Origin: a virus
Direction: 5' to 3' (one strand)
Virus record (IMG/VR): IMGVR_UViG_3300025362_000004
Location: 59,583-123,582 of that record
DNA length: 64,000 nucleotides
Part shown: in pieces, positions 1-23,716 of the stretch
How the letters are laid out: each line of letters starts with the position of its first letter
Position numbering within the stretch: the first letter of the stretch is position 1
Notes under the pieces: model-generated
Seen by the model: only the letters and a program-made list of their open reading frames with translations
Databases searched by the model: none
Told to the model about the DNA's origin: nothing
Made by a program: the position numbers and the translations under genes

Positions 1-90
1 GACAAGCCTGTATCAATGTGGAAGAAAATGCACTTTGATAAGAGTAAAATATCTTTTGTAGGCAAGAGATAAAAAACTACTAATGTAGAT

Positions 91-119
91 TTGATTTTTA
101 TATCAGTTTATGATATAAT
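91..119 (+). promoter_or_regulatory. sigma70-type phage promoter (recurrent motif, about 20 copies in window)
   Basis: TTGATT-N17-TATAAT with extended -10 TG. The same architecture recurs at about 1053, 2509, 3534, 7227, 8962, 12819, 13104, 13914, 21705, 23645, 25373, 27390, 28330, 29096, 30327, 38266, 44738, 44844, 53285. Confidence 0.8.
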
Positions 120-149
120 TATATTATAAAGATAAGAAATAAATATTTT

Positions 150-1000
150 TATCTTCGGTTGAGATACCCTACGGCACAGGTCGTTAAAAGAGGCGTGTTA
201 TCCGCCATACGGCACAGGTCGTTAAAAGGAACTAAGGCGAGCCATACCCGCGTGTGGTGTAACTCCACCAAATATGGTTTCTCCATGGTAATCGCCGCCT
301 TATGAAAATGATATTTAAGTAATAAAGATACGGGTTTATACATTCTCCCAGCGATAAAAAATGTTTTGCGTTAAACTCTTATACAGAAAAGGGTGGGCTT
401 AAAGGCGGGTCAGCATAATGGTCTGGGCGTGTGGCGTCAGTAAAAATCCATGTGGCAGTTGTGGCTATGTCAATAGAAAATGTCATAAGTAGTAATACTT
501 TCATTCGAAAGACGTAAAAATTATAGTGTTACGCAAAATTAGTAGAGAACACTTAAAATAAACGATACTGACATGATTATATGTTAAATAACACAGTTCA
601 ACAGGTTAGATTCAAACCGTCGCTGAGAGTAAGAGTCGTGTCTAAGGAAGCACTCTACCTCGCTTGAAGATTAAACACTAGCGAGTAAGAAATAAGAAAA
701 GCGCTTTGGCGAAAATCCAAATGAGTCAACATAGAGGTGTTGGCCTAGAGCAAACTAGGTAGGGAAAACAACGCTGAGAGTTAGAGTTGCGTGTATTGAT
801 TAACCACTTTACTTTAAACACTCTACCGTAAGGTCTGGAAGCTGTTACCTTATGAGCAACTATATTAAAAACAGCGTATTATTTAATTGCCTGTCGAGGA
901 AAAGTAATATTAAACTATATGAGAATGACGACACGAATAAAATCCTTTCCAAAGGACTGCCCGCGATAAAGTGAACGGCGCAACGGCATGCGAAAGAAGA
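150..1000 (+). ncRNA. large unclassified structured ncRNA (about 0.87 kb)
   Basis: Lies between a promoter and a terminator, has no credible ORF, is richer in GC than the CDSs, with many hairpins and internal duplicated motifs. Confidence 0.65.
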
Positions 1001-1032
1001 CATCAAGGTTGGAAACTTGGTGTTTTTTTTTA
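1000..1032 (+). terminator. intrinsic terminator
   Basis: ACATCAAG-loop-CTTGGTGT followed by a T run. Confidence 0.8.
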
Positions 1033-1127
1033 TGAGTTTTTGGAATATAAGATTTGCTTTTTTTTTAAATCTATGATATAATAAAGTATAAAGATAAAAA
1101 TATACTATTTTTGTGAGGTGTTGAAAT

Positions 1128-1511
1128 ATGAATAAACGATATACATTATTCCTTGCTATGGCGGGGACATATGACCCAAACTTAATAACAAGCAATTTAG
1201 TGCCTGTGGAATATGATTTCACAAAAATAAAACGGTCTTATCGTAAAGTGAAAAAAATATTGAAATATAATAATGTTGTAATAGAAATTCACGATAGACT
1301 GTTAGGTTTTAAAATTCCATATATTTTAGTAATACCTGCAAAAGGAGTAGATAATACTCTATGGTATATGGAAAGAGGTTGGGTAGAAATAGATAAAAAA
1401 TATGCTTATTTTAATAAGCGAAAAGAATTGAAAAGAAAAGTACCAAGAGAACATATAATACAATTAGACAATAAAGAATTATTAAATGAATATTTAGAAG
1501 GGAATGATTAA
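1128..1511 (+). CDS. hypothetical protein
   Basis: Own promoter and GAGGTG RBS. Confidence 0.75.
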   Translation: MNKRYTLFLAMAGTYDPNLITSNLVPVEYDFTKIKRSYRKVKKILKYNNVVIEIHDRLLGFKIPYILVIPAKGVDNTLWYMERGWVEIDKKYAYFNKRKELKRKVPREHIIQLDNKELLNEYLEGND

Positions 1512-1513
1512 AA

Positions 1514-1780
1514 TTGGCAACTAAATTCAAAGAACTAATGAAATTAAAAGGTTATACACAAACACAACTAAGCAAAATTAGTGGTGTTGCTCAATCCAAT
1601 TTGAGTATTTATTGTAATCACAGAGAAACACTAGAGGTATCAACAATGGTTACTCGAGCAAGATTGGCAGGCGCTTTTAGTATGACAGTAAAAGAATTTG
1701 AAGAATATTTAGATTTAGAACCTGCAACACTAATCGCATCAAATAAACAAACAGGCAACTTTACATTACACAAAAACTAA
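1514..1780 (+). CDS. XRE/Cro-family HTH regulator
   Basis: KGYTQTQLSKISGVAQSNLSIY helix-turn-helix. Confidence 0.8.
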   Translation: MATKFKELMKLKGYTQTQLSKISGVAQSNLSIYCNHRETLEVSTMVTRARLAGAFSMTVKEFEEYLDLEPATLIASNKQTGNFTLHKN

Positions 1781-1792
1781 GAGGTGAAATAA

Positions 1793-2068
1793 ATGCCATT
1801 AACAACTACAAAGATTTTTGATTATCTCAACAAAAATGAATTAGCACACCAAGTACACATAAGAAACGATGAGATAATTTTTTATCATTGGAATAGGAAT
1901 ATGACAGATTTAATTAAATCTGTTGTTTTGCACAATGACAAAATAGAACAAGTATATTATTCAAGGAACATAATTCCCATGTTATATACTTTTATGAATA
2001 GTGGAATAGTAAATGATTTTACTGGAGCAGAGAAGTATGTTAGGGATAAAAGAATTTATGCAAGATAA
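1793..2068 (+). CDS. hypothetical protein
   Basis: GAGGTG RBS, operon context. Confidence 0.7.
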   Translation: MPLTTTKIFDYLNKNELAHQVHIRNDEIIFYHWNRNMTDLIKSVVLHNDKIEQVYYSRNIIPMLYTFMNSGIVNDFTGAEKYVRDKRIYAR

Positions 2069-2501
2069 AGAACAACTTGTGTGTGCTATAAAATATTTAT
2101 TAGATGTTGGACTACCTGAGAAATTAGTAGTTCTTGTTACTCAAGCAAAACAACCATACGTTAATAAAATTAAAAATGGTAAATTACATAGAAATACAAA
2201 AATAGAAGAAGGTTTTAAACTAAATTCTGAGCAACAAAATAAATATGAAATCGTTAAAAAGATATTATTTATGCCTGAATTACCTACATCAGGTATAGGA
2301 GAGCAAGATGTTATTTATATGCAATTATTAAAGTTTTTTATGATACCGAAAGACAAAATAATTGAACTTTATAATAATTTAGCAAAAGTTAAAGTTAGTA
2401 GGTTATTATTAAAAAAGAAAATTGACTTAGGAAACTTTGATTCAGAATTAATTGGAGTAGATAAAAAAGAATATCTGGAATTAATGATAGAATTTCTGTA
2501 G
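2058..2501 (+). CDS. hypothetical protein
   Basis: ORF overlapping the previous stop. Confidence 0.65.
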   Translation: MQDKEQLVCAIKYLLDVGLPEKLVVLVTQAKQPYVNKIKNGKLHRNTKIEEGFKLNSEQQNKYEIVKKILFMPELPTSGIGEQDVIYMQLLKFFMIPKDKIIELYNNLAKVKVSRLLLKKKIDLGNFDSELIGVDKKEYLELMIEFL

Positions 2502-2717
2502 TGTAGATTTGATTTTTTTGTGAGTTTATGATATACTATATATAGAAAGATAGAAAAGACTATCTTATTAAAAGAGGTGAAATGCATGAAAAAAGTAATA
2601 CGATTATTTAGTTATAATATTAGAACAGTTGGGCAAAACCCTAGTTTTTCAGCGCACCTTGATTATATGAGACAAATTTCTGTGAGTAGATACTAACACG
2701 ACCATAATAGGTCTATT

Positions 2718-2743
2718 AGTCCACAGAGATGTGGACTTTTTTT
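2718..2743 (+). terminator. intrinsic terminator
   Basis: AGTCCAC-loop-GTGGACT plus T run. Confidence 0.75.
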
Positions 2744-2766
2744 ATTAAAGAGAAGGAGAGGATAAT

Positions 2767-3531
2767 ATGAATAAATATTTTGTATTTGGTGATTCACACG
2801 GGCATTATGAAGCACTAATTTCAAGCCTCGAAGCCGCAGGTTTCGATATAGATAACCCTAATCACATGATAATTGGTTGTGGAGATTACTTTGACAGAGG
2901 AGATAGAAACGCACAGATATATAATTTTCTTACTTCTGAAAAACTGATTGGAAGGGTATATCTTGTATATGGCAACCATGACGCAATGCTAAAAGATTTC
3001 TTAAGCAAACAAAATGATGGCGTATTTAATGCGACATATAATGGCTTAAATAAAACTATTGGAAATTTTGCACAAGTAAGTTGTAATTCAAATATGTTGA
3101 TGTATGATGGCGATTTTTATATTAGTAAAATTAAACAAAATTATCCAAATCTAATGAAGTTCTTACAATCAATGGAAGATAGTTTTACATTAGATGAATA
3201 CATATTTACTCACGCGGGATTAAAGTATGAAAATATGTATGATACTTGGGCTAAACCAATTTGGGTAGTAGACCATTGGGCTAATACACCAACATTTGTA
3301 AATGAGTTTAAATCAGTTGGTAATTATTTAACTGAAGGAAAGAAATTTGTATTTGGACATTGGCATGCTAGAAGATTAAGAAGTGATTTCGGATTAGAAC
3401 CAAGTAACGAGACATTTAAGTATAAAAACTTTATTGGATTAGATGCTTGCACTAACGCAAGTGGTTTCGTAAATGTTTTAGTAATTGAAAGCGATAATTT
3501 ACCTCAAGTTAATAAAAATTTGGAATATTAG
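2767..3531 (+). CDS. calcineurin-like metallophosphoesterase (PPP/lambda phosphatase-like)
   Basis: GDSHG, GDYFDRG, GNHD, THAG, GHWH motifs. Confidence 0.9.
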   Translation: MNKYFVFGDSHGHYEALISSLEAAGFDIDNPNHMIIGCGDYFDRGDRNAQIYNFLTSEKLIGRVYLVYGNHDAMLKDFLSKQNDGVFNATYNGLNKTIGNFAQVSCNSNMLMYDGDFYISKIKQNYPNLMKFLQSMEDSFTLDEYIFTHAGLKYENMYDTWAKPIWVVDHWANTPTFVNEFKSVGNYLTEGKKFVFGHWHARRLRSDFGLEPSNETFKYKNFIGLDACTNASGFVNVLVIESDNLPQVNKNLEY

Positions 3532-3733
3532 ATTTGAAATTTTAGTTAGATTATGGTATAATAAAGTATAAAAATAAAGATATAAATATAGATATATGGG
3601 AAATGAACTCCCAGTCGTGCACAGACAAACTGTTCAAGGTACGTAGTCGTTCGGACCGCCAAAAGGTAAGTGAGACAAAGGTGTAGTGGGAGCTACCGAT
3701 TGGATACCTAGAAACTAAAGTTCAATCGTATAT

Positions 3734-21702: not shown

Positions 21703-21799
21703 ATTTGATTTTCTTTATGGTTTATGATATAATTATATTATAACTAAGTGAGATATATAATATTATTTAGTTATCGGTCTTTGAAAAACAAATGAGAAA

Positions 21800-23580
21800 T
21801 TATCACTCATTTCATATGAAATTAATGGTGGCCTCAAAGCTGTTCGCGGCTTAAAGGTGGGTATCAACACGAACTCCAAAGGTTCGTTCGTAGTCCAAAA
21901 GACAAGGGGATATCGCTGTTATCATTAGTTGTTGTAAATTAATACCATCGGTGGTCATTTAGTAAAGTGAGAGTAGCGTCTCAAACTATACTATGGGAAA
22001 ATGATTTTACTGCTGTTGACGGGGAGAAATGCCTCTATAACACGGGTGGTAGTTGAACGTAGAAACCAGTAGAATTTTTAAATAATTAAGCAAATGCTAA
22101 ATTTGTAGGTAATCAATCCTACCTATTACACGCCTTGTGCAATATAGAGACCTTGCTAGTCAATATATGTAATAGTCGCATAATGAATAAGTTGTATATG
22201 TATTGGACTTCCTAATCAGAAGACCCTAACGTAAGTTAGTACACTAAAACCCTAACTCTTGCTTGGAGTAAGTGGCGTATAAATGAGGTTGAAATACCTT
22301 TCGAGCCTGTTGAGGCAAATTTATACGGCGAAACATATATAATTTAATTAGTGCATCGAGAAGCGACTCAGTATCTGGGGCCCGCGACCCTCCCAGGGCG
22401 TGGATGAGACCCAAGCGTAGATATGAAAACCGTTGAAACGGGTAAAACCGTGTATAATGAGTCAAGCCAATTCGAGTAAAAGCATAAAAACGGAAAAAAA
22501 TACAGATACTTTCTTAAAGTGAAAGTTGACTTGTTTAAGACAGGTAAAATAGATTAAAGCCTACGTACTTGTGAGTAATCAATCTCACTATCCTTCGGGA
22601 TATGTAATGAACCAACACAGTTAATGAATAAACTTATTGGTAAGATAATAAATCCAATCCGTTAATTTTATATGAAATGAGTGAATAACACGAGGCAGTT
22701 TAGTGTCTCTAAAGGGAAAAGGTGGGTAACCATCTGGAAGGTATTTGACAAATATCGCTATGTAATATAGCCCGTCTAAACAAAAGTAGTCAAGTGAGAG
22801 TATTAAAAATGTAGCTCACTCTTCAAGATAGTAACGAATTGTTGGAGAATAGATACTGTTATTATGTTAAAAGGAGTCAACGGCAAGTGCTTAGATTCTG
22901 TGGTTATCTCGTGGTGGGATAATCGGCATATCCAAAAATAATAGAATTGAAAGAAAACTACAAGGGTAATAAGTATGAGGTTAGCAACTAAATGCAGTTA
23001 CCCATTAAGTAAAGTAAAAATGGAGCTTTATTTAAAGTGAAAGTACCGCGAGGAAATCACAACGGAGATATTGAATATTTTGTGTCCCAAAAGGAAACGA
23101 AGTTCAGGTTGAAGTATATCTTCTGTCAAAACAAACAATACATATGGGGGTTCGAGTCCCTCCCTAGCCTCCAATAAAAATTATATGGCTGGGTAGCTTA
23201 ATGGGTAAAGCAGTTGTCTAAGAAACAATACATTTGTATAAGCGAAATCTTCAAAGATTTAAGATGAAAATGCCTTAATTCCACAGAGTAATACTTAATG
23301 TGGAGCAGTAAAACTCGCAAGGTAATACTGTTTGATAAGGAAATGCACGGCGTCTCTAGCGAGACTTAGTGAGTCGCAAGCTCACACGGTAATGGAATTG
23401 TCGATTAATCTTAAATGACAGGGTGCTAAGCATCATCCTTCCAGAGATGGTAAAACAAAGCAGGCATGCTTCTAAACAGACCCGAGTCTGTGGATAAGTT
23501 AATTAACACGTGCAGATAAGCATCGCGTGGTACGATTAACTAAAGTAGGAGTATTAAAGATATAATCTCAGTCTTTAAAA
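21800..23580 (+). ncRNA. giant (about 1.8 kb) structured RNA locus, GOLLD-like 3' part
   Basis: Promoter at 21705, terminator at 23589, no credible ORF, 26-bp long-range helix 21803-21828/22659-22684, embedded permuted tRNA. Confidence 0.7.
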
Positions 23581-23588
23581 ACTAAACT

Positions 23589-23612
23589 AGCACTTCCGAG
23601 TGCTCTTTTTTT
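23589..23612 (+). terminator. intrinsic terminator
   Basis: AGCACT-TCCG-AGTGCT plus T run. Confidence 0.85.
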
Positions 23613-23716
23613 ATGGAATAAAAGTAAATACATAAATTAAAAATTGACTTTTGGTTTAAATTATGTTATAATTAAGTATAAAAAGATAGATATATATTTA
23701 ATATTAGGAGAGTAAA

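What the first reader, a model, noticed from the sequence alone, without database searches (positions are those of the whole stretch)
150..1032. Stand-alone 0.87-kb ORF-free RNA gene with internal duplicated modules
Seen: its own promoter (91) and terminator (1000), no credible ORF, many GNRA-type hairpins. An exact 21-nt repeat TACGGCACAGGTCGTTAAAAG (170, 208) and a second repeated motif CGCTGAGAGTWAGAGT (621, 772). Inference: a large structured ncRNA in the size class of ROOL/GOLLD/OLE phage RNAs, but I do not recognise it. Repeated loop motifs could be oligomerisation contacts.
Basis: partly seen in the sequence, partly recalled or inferred. Interest (0 to 1): 0.7.

Follow-up and report, generated by a model that had tools for sequence, protein, structure and literature searches.

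The report
Orphan phage non-coding RNA gene
A salt-lake phage carries a 0.9-kb stretch with its own promoter and terminator that encodes no protein and matches no known RNA family, so it is probably a new non-coding RNA, but unlike the phage's other giant RNAs it shows little sign of an elaborate fold.

Summary
Window 127-1032 is a real, self-contained, ORF-free transcription unit. Its promoter belongs to a 24-member phage promoter family and a strong intrinsic terminator closes it. Every frame holds 14-25 stops. Coding potential equals that of the tRNA arrays and the GOLLD unit, and GC is in the top 5% of the genome. Both internal repeats are exact as described. "Many GNRA hairpins" is not above chance.

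It matches no Rfam 15 family, even at E<=10. I found no DNA relative in any collection searched. The one exception is a 194-nt contig in an aquatic metatranscriptome, 90-95% alike over window 172-326, with two 1-nt insertions that no ORF would tolerate.

The whole-length fold is no more stable than shuffles (z -0.22). The same phage's GOLLD unit scores -4.5 and its ROOL-like unit -4.9. So "ornate giant RNA" is not supported.

One strand-specific long-range helix stands out: repeat copy 2 pairs with an anti-repeat at 416-436.

Verdict: probable orphan non-coding RNA, function unknown, no covariation test possible. Two other first-stage readings of this same stretch exist; none on other DNA.

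The parts
88..119 (+). Early-type promoter: AGAT, then -35 TTGATT (91-96), 17-nt spacer, extended -10 TGATATAAT (111-119). The start at about 126 is inferred.
   Evidence: 10 of 12 consensus matches, TG present; 24 of 32 TGATATAAT sites in the genome share a TTG -35 hexamer at 17 nt. The same promoter type drives protein genes (for example 1074), the ROOL-like/GOLLD transcript (21725) and a c-di-GMP riboswitch (27410).
129..155 (+). A/U-rich 5' leader hairpin (129-138 with 146-155). It overlaps the initial transcribed sequence ATAAAGATAAG that is shared by the promoter family.
   Evidence: 10 pairs, mean probability 0.89.
167..190 (+). Repeat copy 1: hairpin ACGGC-ACAG-GUCGU (171-184) followed by UAAAAG.
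   Evidence: family D4; no other copy in the genome; local fold.
205..228 (+). Repeat copy 2 (23 of 24 bases identical to copy 1). Predicted to pair with the anti-repeat at 416-436 rather than fold locally.
172..326 (+). Block found in a relative. A 194-nt contig of an aquatic metatranscriptome (run X11, depth 13.8) is 90-95% alike here, with 8 substitutions and 2 single-base insertions. The listed differences cluster at 279-289. The 33 bases after 326 are too different to lay, but they keep a GGG...CCC hairpin.
   Evidence: tables 1, 3, 4, 7, 8; coordinates converted from L001 by subtracting 1374.
396..410 (+). 15-mer GGCTTAAAGGYGGGT, shared only with the ROOL-like unit at 21848-21862.
   Evidence: 2 matches in 64 kb allowing up to 2 mismatches, 0.15 expected. 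The pattern was derived from these two sites, so the test is post hoc.
416..436 (+). Anti-repeat. It pairs with 203-224 (9 + 10 pairs, 4 of them G-U) and closes a domain of about 190 nt.
   Evidence: probability 0.83. (-28.1 kcal/mol, the best partner of copy 2 anywhere in the unit). (0 of 150 shuffles reach it; mean -20.0, sd 2.3). (the same duplex on the minus strand is only -16.1).
614..685 (+). Module 1: CGCUGAGAGUAAGAGU ... CACUCUACC helix (about 629-636 with 652-658), directly followed by hairpin 659-664/680-685.
   Evidence: (D3, D9).
765..877 (+). Module 2, a paralogue of module 1. It has the same two helix strands with a longer loop, directly followed by a hairpin of different sequence (827-834/847-854). 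It is closed by 771-776/872-877.
992..1031 (+). Intrinsic terminator (stem with loop GUUGGAAA, U9 tail).
   Evidence: (probability 0.97).

Best explanation
Window about 126-1031 is a stand-alone gene for a roughly 905-nt non-coding RNA of an uncultured 124-kb salt-lake phage. It is the founding, so far orphan, member of its own family.

Shown:
- It is bracketed by a promoter of the phage's main host-type family and by a strong intrinsic terminator.
- It has no coding capacity.
- It is GC-enriched like the phage's known RNA genes.
- It holds two pairs of internally duplicated modules.
- Its 5' part (172-326) is kept at 90-95% identity in a relative sampled from an RNA library.

Inferred working model:
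- The RNA is modular rather than compact.
- Copy 1 of the 24-nt element forms a small hairpin with an A-rich tail near the 5' end.
- Copy 2 pairs with an anti-repeat 190 nt downstream and closes the conserved 5' domain.
- The 3' half carries two paralogous hairpin modules joined by A-rich linkers.

Most likely mechanism, at low confidence for this step: such an RNA acts through its sequence and modules as a binding platform or decoy. The partner would be a host or phage protein of RNA metabolism, since the gene opens the phage's tRNA and RNA-repair island. It does not look like a self-assembling cage of the GOLLD/ROOL type.
For: Transcription unit: promoter family; terminator.

Non-coding:
- ORF lists.
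- 14-25 stops per frame.
- best-of-six-frames codon score has mean -0.35. The tRNA array scores -0.32 and the ROOL-like plus GOLLD stretch 21748-23613 -0.32. The genome median is +0.14.
- 5 of 6 ORFs in or overlapping the unit were never called as genes in a 15-billion-protein collection.
- the two longest ORFs have no homologue.
- the relative carries two 1-nt insertions 10 nt apart inside both of the longest 5' ORFs.

RNA-like composition: GC is 0.39 against 0.32 for the genome, which is the top 5.2% of 906-nt windows, alongside the tRNA arrays.

Repeats far beyond chance.

Strand-specific long-range helix: -28.1 kcal/mol on the plus strand against -16.1 on the minus strand; 0 of 150 shuffles reach it.

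Paralogous modules keep a hairpin at the same place with unrelated sequence.

Presence in an RNA library: of the 3.9 kb laid, the 5' domain is the only piece found in run X11.
Against: - No covariation test was possible, because no full homologue could be fetched.
- The full-length folding energy equals that of shuffles (z -0.31; z -0.22). All 150-nt windows lie between z -1.6 and +1.1. Positive controls from the same phage score -2.5 to -4.9.
- The X11 piece is an assembled contig. It shows neither strand nor ends, and DNA can contaminate RNA libraries. Its flanks in the relative may be too diverged to lay, so their absence is uninformative.
- The 5 substitutions listed in the relative give 2 G-C to G-U changes and 2 disruptions in the predicted local helices. 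That is no net support for that fold.
- The DNA runs X7-X9 gave only identical fragments, so no population variation was available.
- The function is unassigned. The neighbouring proteins are uninformative.
Confidence: 0.6

Rival explanations
1. It is a third 'ornate' self-assembling RNA of the GOLLD/ROOL kind, too diverged for the models, and the repeats make intermolecular contacts.
For: - Its size (about 905 nt) equals that of the phage's ROOL-like unit (943 nt) and GOLLD unit (923 nt).
- It uses the same promoter type as their transcript.
- It sits 2.7 kb before the tRNA arrays, the usual setting of GOLLD and ROOL (10.1101/2024.12.08.627333, passages).
- A 15-mer is shared with the ROOL-like unit.
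Against: - There is no GOLLD or ROOL match even at E<=10.
- Its z-score is -0.22 against -4.5 and -4.9 for those units.
- Nothing like it turned up in 49 whole records of GOLLD-bearing phages. Those were 50 of the 120 loci found, with one not held; only 14-35-nt matches appeared, best E 0.005 per record.
- The 15-mer test is post hoc.
Confidence: 0.1
2. It is a nuclease-resistant decoy RNA. Each 24-nt repeat plus the following hairpin would act like the plant-virus coremin knot, stalling a 5'-3' exoribonuclease, so that a stable RNA starting at about 168 accumulates.
For: - The layout resembles coremin: a 4-5-bp hairpin with a 4-nt loop, then (G)UUAAA, then a second small hairpin after copy 1 (GGCG N7 CGCC, 192-205). 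For comparison, coremin is described in PMC6546385 (abstract) and in passages of PMC10520033 and PMC10321173.
- The scan's index links this repeat by shared short words to a phage element that another agent called coremin-like.
- The X11 contig begins about 4 nt before window 172, at the foot of copy 1. That is a hint only, because contigs do not show ends.
Against: - The loop is ACAG, not YGAD or YGNNAD.
- The spacer lacks CUAC.
- The loop cannot form the three Watson-Crick pairs of the WCC variant with either flank (read).
- Copy 2 has no hairpin at the required distance.
- Hairpin-plus-TTAAA sites are not enriched in this genome: 9 on the plus strand against 8.6 in shuffles.
Confidence: 0.1
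3. It is a DNA-level element (replication origin with iterons, a packaging site or another protein-binding site) that merely lies between a promoter and a terminator.
For: - Two pairs of direct repeats lie in an ORF-free stretch.
- The global minimum of cumulative GC skew lies about 1.7-2.7 kb to the left, at genome 57-58 kb, where transcription diverges.
Against: - In this genome the skew follows transcription direction.
- No DnaA box with up to 1 mismatch lies in 127-1032; there are 19 in the window against 22 expected.
- Each repeat has only two copies.
- The strongest complementarity works only on the plus strand through 4 G-U pairs.
- GC is raised rather than lowered.
- A relative's copy lies in an RNA library.
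Confidence: 0.07
4. It is non-functional: a transcribed spacer or the decayed remnant of genes.
For: - There is no thermodynamic signal.
- No homologues were found in IMG/VR or JGI contigs.
- The sequence after 326 diverges fast in the only relative.
Against: - GC is higher than in coding DNA, and the codon score is as low as in RNA genes, which a recent pseudogene would not show.
- The internal repeats are exact and there is a significant anti-repeat.
- Identity is 90-95% over 155 nt with a phage from another habitat.
- No translated frame has a homologue.
Confidence: 0.1
5. It encodes one or more micro-proteins, for example the 24-aa Cys-rich ORF at 418-492.
For:: MVWACGVSKNPCGSCGYVNRKCHK, with four Cys at a regular spacing and one more. 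Such peptides escape ORF filters.
Against: - No Shine-Dalgarno sequence like those of the phage's genes precedes it (compare the leaders).
- Its Cys codons come from the UGUGG words of the anti-repeat region.
- The codon score is low in all frames.
Confidence: 0.03

Closest known systems
GOLLD RNA (Rfam RF02032) and ROOL RNA (RF03087), large phage and prophage RNAs near tRNA islands
   Same: The host is a phage, the length is about 0.9 kb, and the position is next to a tRNA island. It is expressed from its own strong promoter. The same genome carries a GOLLD (23063-23574, 150.4 bits) and a ROOL-like unit.
   Different: There is no covariance-model match at E<=10. The fold shows no excess stability, whereas both comparators have z below -4.5. 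It is absent from 49 GOLLD-bearing phage records.
Coremin motif (xrRNA-C) of beny- and cucumoviruses and its Watson-Crick variant (PMC6546385 abstract; PMC10520033 and PMC10321173 passages)
   Same: A small hairpin with a 4-nt loop, followed by (G)UUAAA and, for copy 1, by a second small hairpin. The element stands at the 5' end of the piece seen in RNA.
   Different: The loop is ACAG instead of YGAD. There is no CUAC. There is no loop-spacer pairing. Copy 2 lacks the second hairpin at the right distance. Nuclease resistance is untested.
An approximately 620-nt ORF-less phage RNA built from coremin-like knots
   Same: A stand-alone promoter-to-terminator non-coding unit of a lake phage, with internally duplicated small modules.
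   Different: I could not see its sequence. The index reports no shared words with it. The link is by description only.

Membership tests
GOLLD (RF02032) | Match to the conserved 3' domain model at or above the 150-bit gathering score | tested here: not met
   No match in 1-1200 at E<=10. A whole-genome search finds only 23063-23574 of the window.
ROOL (RF03087) | Match to the 574-position model (gathering score 99.1 bits) | tested here: not met
   No match at E<=10. The genome search finds only two sub-threshold matches, both in 21935-22635 of the window.
GOLLD/ROOL/OLE kind ('ornate' large RNA) | Extensive conserved secondary structure supported by covariation | not testable with these tools
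   No homologue could be fetched. As a proxy, the MFE z-score is -0.22 against -4.53 (GOLLD unit) and -4.93 (ROOL-like unit) in the same phage.
Any Rfam 15 family (4227 models, OLE, HEARO, raiA and others included, as far as they are in that release) | Covariance-model match | tested here: not met
   There is nothing at gathering score in 1-3700. At E<=10 there are only two noise hits (E 3.8 and 4.5) in the AT-rich leader.
Coremin / xrRNA-C | Hairpin 1 of 3-4 bp with loop YGAD (or YGNNAD) | tested here: not met
   The stem is present (CGGC/GUCG, or 5 bp ACGGC/GUCGU). The loop is ACAG, or CACAGG if the stem is read as 4 bp.
Coremin / xrRNA-C | Conserved 8-10-nt spacer ending in CUAC, followed directly by hairpin 2 | tested here: not met
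   The spacer is UUAAAAG(A). It shares UUAAA and lacks CUAC. Hairpin 2 is present after copy 1 only.
Coremin, Watson-Crick variant | Loop nucleotides 6-8 pair with spacer nucleotides 18-20 | tested here: not met
   CAG faces AGA (copy 1) or AGG (copy 2), so no standard pair forms.
Coremin / xrRNA-C | Stalls a 5'-3' exoribonuclease | not testable with these tools
   This needs an enzyme assay.
Type III antitoxin RNA (ToxI-like; features recalled, not from a call) | Tandem near-identical repeats of about 34-45 nt next to an endoribonuclease toxin gene | tested here: not met
   The period is 38 nt, but only 24 of 38 nt are shared. No defence or toxin family occurs among 8 neighbouring proteins except weak methyltransferase- and phosphoesterase-like hits.
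CRISPR-like mini-array or repeat decoy (features recalled) | Repeats of about 28-37 nt separated by spacers of similar length | tested here: not met
   The repeats are 24 nt and the gap is 14 nt.
Bacterial-type independent transcription unit | Promoter and intrinsic terminator on the same strand with nothing between | tested here: met
   The only internal terminator-like site (255-270) has a poor U tail.

The most novel reading that the evidence does not exclude
This is the first member of an undescribed class of large phage RNAs. It would be a third giant RNA beside a ROOL-like RNA and a GOLLD in one phage. It is built not as a compact cage subunit but as a modular RNA with a repeat/anti-repeat switch: one anti-repeat can pair with either of two identical 24-nt elements. 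Its conserved, abundant 5' domain would act as a decoy for a host RNA-processing or defence factor.
Probability: 0.25. Interest if true: 0.7.

Novelty: new variant of a known kind. Interest (0 to 1): 0.45.

Why it matters
Phages with tRNA islands are the home of GOLLD and ROOL, giant RNAs that form cages and whose function is still unknown. This one phage puts three 0.9-kb non-coding units under the same early promoter type: one GOLLD, one ROOL-like and this unclassified one. That makes it a natural system for asking what such RNAs do together. If the unit is functional, it widens the repertoire of large viral RNAs beyond the compact 'ornate' type. If relatives show no constraint, it is a caution that a promoter, a terminator and the lack of an ORF do not make a structured RNA.

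Tried and rejected
Searches for homologues that gave nothing usable:
- blastn at 'distant' sensitivity against 50,697 phage records: no match.
- The window's own genome: only the unit itself.
- IMG/VR exact-pattern scans. The 20-mer of the repeat gave 0 hits.
- The 16-mer of the second motif gave 17 hits. All are chance, because none carries the 3' strand of the helix.
- The two-copy core pattern gave 2 hits, both high-GC coding repeats.
- The JGI metagenome scan with the 18-mer gave 7 hits, all in unrelated high-GC context.
- The flanking proteins used as single queries found no relatives in IMG/VR.
- The DNA polymerase found one 11.6-kb relative (63% identity) that has no match to the unit.

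The methyltransferase route:
- The upstream methyltransferase has relatives at 52% (P0002, contig 121,670 bp) and 40% (P0005, contig 125,751 bp).
- P0002 is not in the GenBank phage set: 7 records match, all at 24-32% identity.
- An alignment of 7 methyltransferases retrieved 80 IMG/VR loci (at most 33% identity) and 1 genome locus.
- nhmmer found nothing in 81 loci (L026-L106), 1.51 Mb.

GOLLD-bearing phages:
- 120 loci were found.
- nhmmer found nothing in them. blastn gave only two 29-nt matches at E 0.23 and 0.81.
- BLAST over 49 whole records gave only short chance matches.

Sequencing runs:
- DNA runs X7, X8 and X9 hold only identical fragments, so their small word shares reflect patchy assembly, not divergence. 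No variation was gained.
- Parts of the stretch without cover in any run are not evidence of anything.

Readings considered and dropped:
- tRNA or tmRNA mimic: ARAGORN found none.
- Tandem array: one weak row.
- Trans targets of the repeat in the phage genome: none above chance.
- Enrichment of GGA words: 7 against 12 expected.
- The inverted repeat 364-382/520-538 loses to local hairpins in the ensemble.
- 'Cognate' pairing of each repeat copy with its own GCGUGUGG word: the cross pairs are as good or better.
- ROOL signature words in my loci: none convincing.
- One paper read in passages (PMC11702639) turned out not to deal with coremin and was not used.

Literature:
- 'coremin' together with 'bacteriophage' finds 1 paper, on a plant virus.
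- 'GOLLD', 'ROOL' and 'phage' together find 9 papers. From the listing and the passages I read, none describes this RNA.
They could hold motif lists that I did not see.
Full report
WHAT IS THERE

The window is the right half of a 123,582-bp IMG/VR virus record. Coded sequencing runs place it in salt-lake metagenomes. The 64 kb hold 39 tRNA matches, a tmRNA, a c-di-GMP-I riboswitch and a GOLLD RNA at 23063-23574. The finding lies at the left edge, 2.7 kb before the first tRNA array.

The described features are present.
- Promoter: 91-119, TTGATT, 17 nt, TATAAT, with a TG extension.
- Terminator: 992-1031 (pairing probability 0.97).
- First repeat: the exact 21-mer at 170 and 208, extending to 24 nt at 167-190 and 205-228 with one mismatch.
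- Second repeat: the motif at 621 and 772, extending to 31 nt at 77% identity, with a collinear 12-mer at 648-659 and 816-827.
- Neither repeat has any further copy in the 124-kb genome.

The promoter is not a chance consensus hit.
- TGATATAAT occurs 32 times in the genome.
- 24 of those, this one included, have a TTG-starting -35 hexamer exactly 17 nt upstream.
- Many share AGAT before it and the first transcribed bases ATAAAGATAAG.
- The same promoter type drives protein genes, including the next gene at 1074. It also drives the 1.9-kb transcript that ends in GOLLD (21725) and the riboswitch (27410).

The claim of many GNRA hairpins does not hold: 4 were found against 2.1 expected, and 75 of 500 shuffles reach 4.

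IT IS NOT CODING

- The longest ORFs touching the unit are 64 aa (149-343, minus strand) and 120 aa (860-1222, minus strand). The second runs antisense through the terminator and the next promoter.
- Another note of this scan reports TGA-to-Trp recoding in the phage's late genes, so I re-listed ORFs under table 4 and under TAG=Q. Nothing opens.
- Each of the six frames holds 14-25 stops of all three kinds.
- I trained a codon-usage score on 51 long ORFs of the phage. The best of six frames has a mean of -0.35 inside the unit. The tRNA array scores -0.32 and the ROOL-like plus GOLLD stretch 21748-23613 -0.32. The genome median is +0.14.
- Five of six ORFs in or overlapping the unit were never called as genes in the 15-billion-protein collection.
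- The two longest ORFs have no homologue there.
- GC is 0.39 against 0.32 for the genome. That is the top 5.2% of 906-nt windows, a group that otherwise holds the tRNA arrays.

IT IS NO KNOWN RNA FAMILY

- Rfam 15 gives nothing at gathering score.
- At E<=10 there are only two noise hits, in the AT-rich leader.
- Genome-wide searches with the ROOL and GOLLD models hit only 21935-22635 and 23063-23574 of the window.
- ARAGORN finds nothing.

RELATIVES

The outcome:
- No relative was found in the GenBank phage set, in IMG/VR, in the JGI metagenome contigs (one 18-mer scan) or in 49 whole records of GOLLD-bearing phages.
- Relatives of the phage do exist. The upstream methyltransferase has homologues at 52% and 40% identity on contigs of about 122-126 kb.

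The only relative of the RNA itself came from laying sequencing runs.
- An aquatic metatranscriptome (run X11) holds a 194-nt contig, depth 13.8, that matches window 172-326.
- It differs by 8 substitutions and 2 single-base insertions (the 90-95% identity class).
- The listed differences cluster at 279-289.
- Past 326 the contig continues for 33 bases too different to lay. Read by eye, these bases still keep a GGG...CCC hairpin with a different loop.
- The two insertions lie 10 nt apart, inside both the 48-aa plus-strand ORF and the 64-aa minus-strand ORF. This conservation is therefore not protein-coding.
- It is the only piece of the 3.9 kb laid that appears in that RNA library.

This contig is a hint of expression and of constraint, not proof. 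Contigs show neither strand nor ends. DNA can be present in RNA libraries. The relative's flanks may simply be too diverged to lay.

The three DNA runs laid held only identical fragments and gave no variation.

IS IT A LARGE STRUCTURED RNA?

- The full-length fold is no more stable than dinucleotide shuffles. The z-score is -0.31 on the plus strand and -0.02 on the minus strand.
- In my own run with 30 shuffles the z-score is -0.22.
- In that same run the phage's ROOL-like unit (21748-22690) scores -4.93, its GOLLD unit (22691-23613) -4.53 and its tmRNA -2.52.
- Sliding 150-nt windows lie between -1.6 and +1.1.

Some structure signals do exist.
- Long-range helix. Repeat copy 2 and its left flank (203-224) pair with 416-436 in a 9 + 10-pair helix with 4 G-U pairs. 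Its ensemble probability is 0.83 and its energy -28.1 kcal/mol. It is the best partner anywhere in the unit. It is stronger than the best duplex in any of 150 shuffles of the downstream 804 nt (mean -20.0, sd 2.3, minimum -25.5). The same duplex is worth only -16.1 on the minus strand. This fits selection on the plus-strand RNA rather than on DNA.
- Copy 1. It can pair with the same anti-repeat less well (-20.7). On its own it folds as a 5-bp hairpin with loop ACAG followed by UAAAAG.
- Paralogous modules. The two modules of the 3' half share both strands of one helix. Each is followed directly by a hairpin of unrelated sequence: CUCGCU/AGCGAG in one, CGUAAGGU/ACCUUAUG in the other. I regard this as weak, post-hoc support.

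In the relative, the four substitutions that fall in predicted local stems give two G-C to G-U changes and two disruptions. That is no net support for that fold.

THE COREMIN LEAD

The scan's own index linked the repeat, by shared short words, to a phage element that another agent had called coremin-like. About 140 notes of the scan use that label. I tested it against the published definition:
- hairpin 1 of 3-4 bp with loop YGAD or YGNNAD;
- a conserved spacer (G)UUAAACUAC;
- then hairpin 2;
- in the Watson-Crick variant, loop positions 6-8 pair with spacer positions 18-20.

Sources were PMC6546385 (abstract) and passages of PMC10520033 and PMC10321173.

The repeat shares the small hairpin, the UUAAA and, for copy 1, a following hairpin. 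However, its loop is ACAG, the CUAC is missing and no loop-spacer pairing is possible. Hairpin-plus-TTAAA sites are not enriched in this genome (9 against 8.6). It is therefore not a member. A like function (nuclease stalling) stays a minor possibility. It is hinted at only by the X11 contig beginning at the foot of copy 1.

OTHER RIVALS

- DNA-level element. Cumulative GC skew has a minimum 1.7-2.7 kb to the left, where transcription diverges. But skew follows gene direction here. No DnaA-type box lies in the unit. The key complementarity is RNA-strand-specific.
- Decayed gene. This is contradicted by the raised GC, the exact repeats and the conserved 5' block.
- Micro-protein. A 24-aa Cys-rich ORF lies at 418-492. 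It has no ribosome-binding site like the phage's genes, and its Cys codons are by-products of the UGUGG words of the anti-repeat.

VERDICT

This is a real, autonomous, non-coding transcription unit. It is most likely a functional RNA of a so far orphan family (confidence about 0.6). It is modular and loosely folded rather than 'ornate'. Its conserved 5' domain is closed by a repeat/anti-repeat helix. Its function is unknown. My best guess is a binding platform or decoy in the phage's RNA-metabolism programme. It is a new variant within the known kind 'large phage non-coding RNAs near tRNA islands'. The decisive covariation and transcript tests remain to be done.

Noticed in passing
window 21748-22690: The 0.94-kb unit just upstream of GOLLD in the same transcript gives two sub-threshold ROOL matches. 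One is at 21935-22187 (31.7 bits, E 6e-6 per genome) and one at 22346-22635 (19.7 bits). Its fold z-score is -4.93. The phage may therefore carry a diverged ROOL-like RNA fused to a GOLLD.
   Followed up: partly
whole genome; window 111, 1074, 7248, 13125, 13934, 21725, 27410, 38286 and others: There is a promoter family with an extended -10 TGATATAAT. 24 of 32 sites have a TTG -35 hexamer at 17 nt, often with AGAT upstream and a shared start ATAAAGATAA. The family drives both protein genes and RNA genes.
   Followed up: partly
window 23145-23260: Inside the GOLLD linker there are weak YrlA-like (28 bits) and tRNA-like (24 bits) matches. This fits a tRNA-like insert in the GOLLD linker.
   Followed up: no
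genome about 29 kb and about 57-58 kb (window about -2500 to -1500): Cumulative GC skew has two near-equal minima at points where transcription diverges. Genes at 47-58 kb run on the minus strand from the same promoter family.
   Followed up: no
L001 563-1279 (window -811 to -95): The upstream 238-aa SAM-methyltransferase belongs to a family with 162 members at E<=0.001 among 399 candidates. It is present in 111 IMG/VR stretches, mostly on phage contigs of 50-480 kb. It has a weak PHROG match to 'tRNA methyltransferase'.
   Followed up: partly
window 418-492: A 24-aa ORF with five cysteines overlaps the anti-repeat. It is probably a by-product of the UGUGG words.
   Followed up: partly
window 396-410 and 21848-21862: An identical 10 + 4-base word (GGCTTAAAGG, then one variable base, then GGGT) is shared by this unit and the ROOL-like unit and occurs nowhere else in the 64 kb. 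Its meaning is unknown.
   Followed up: partly
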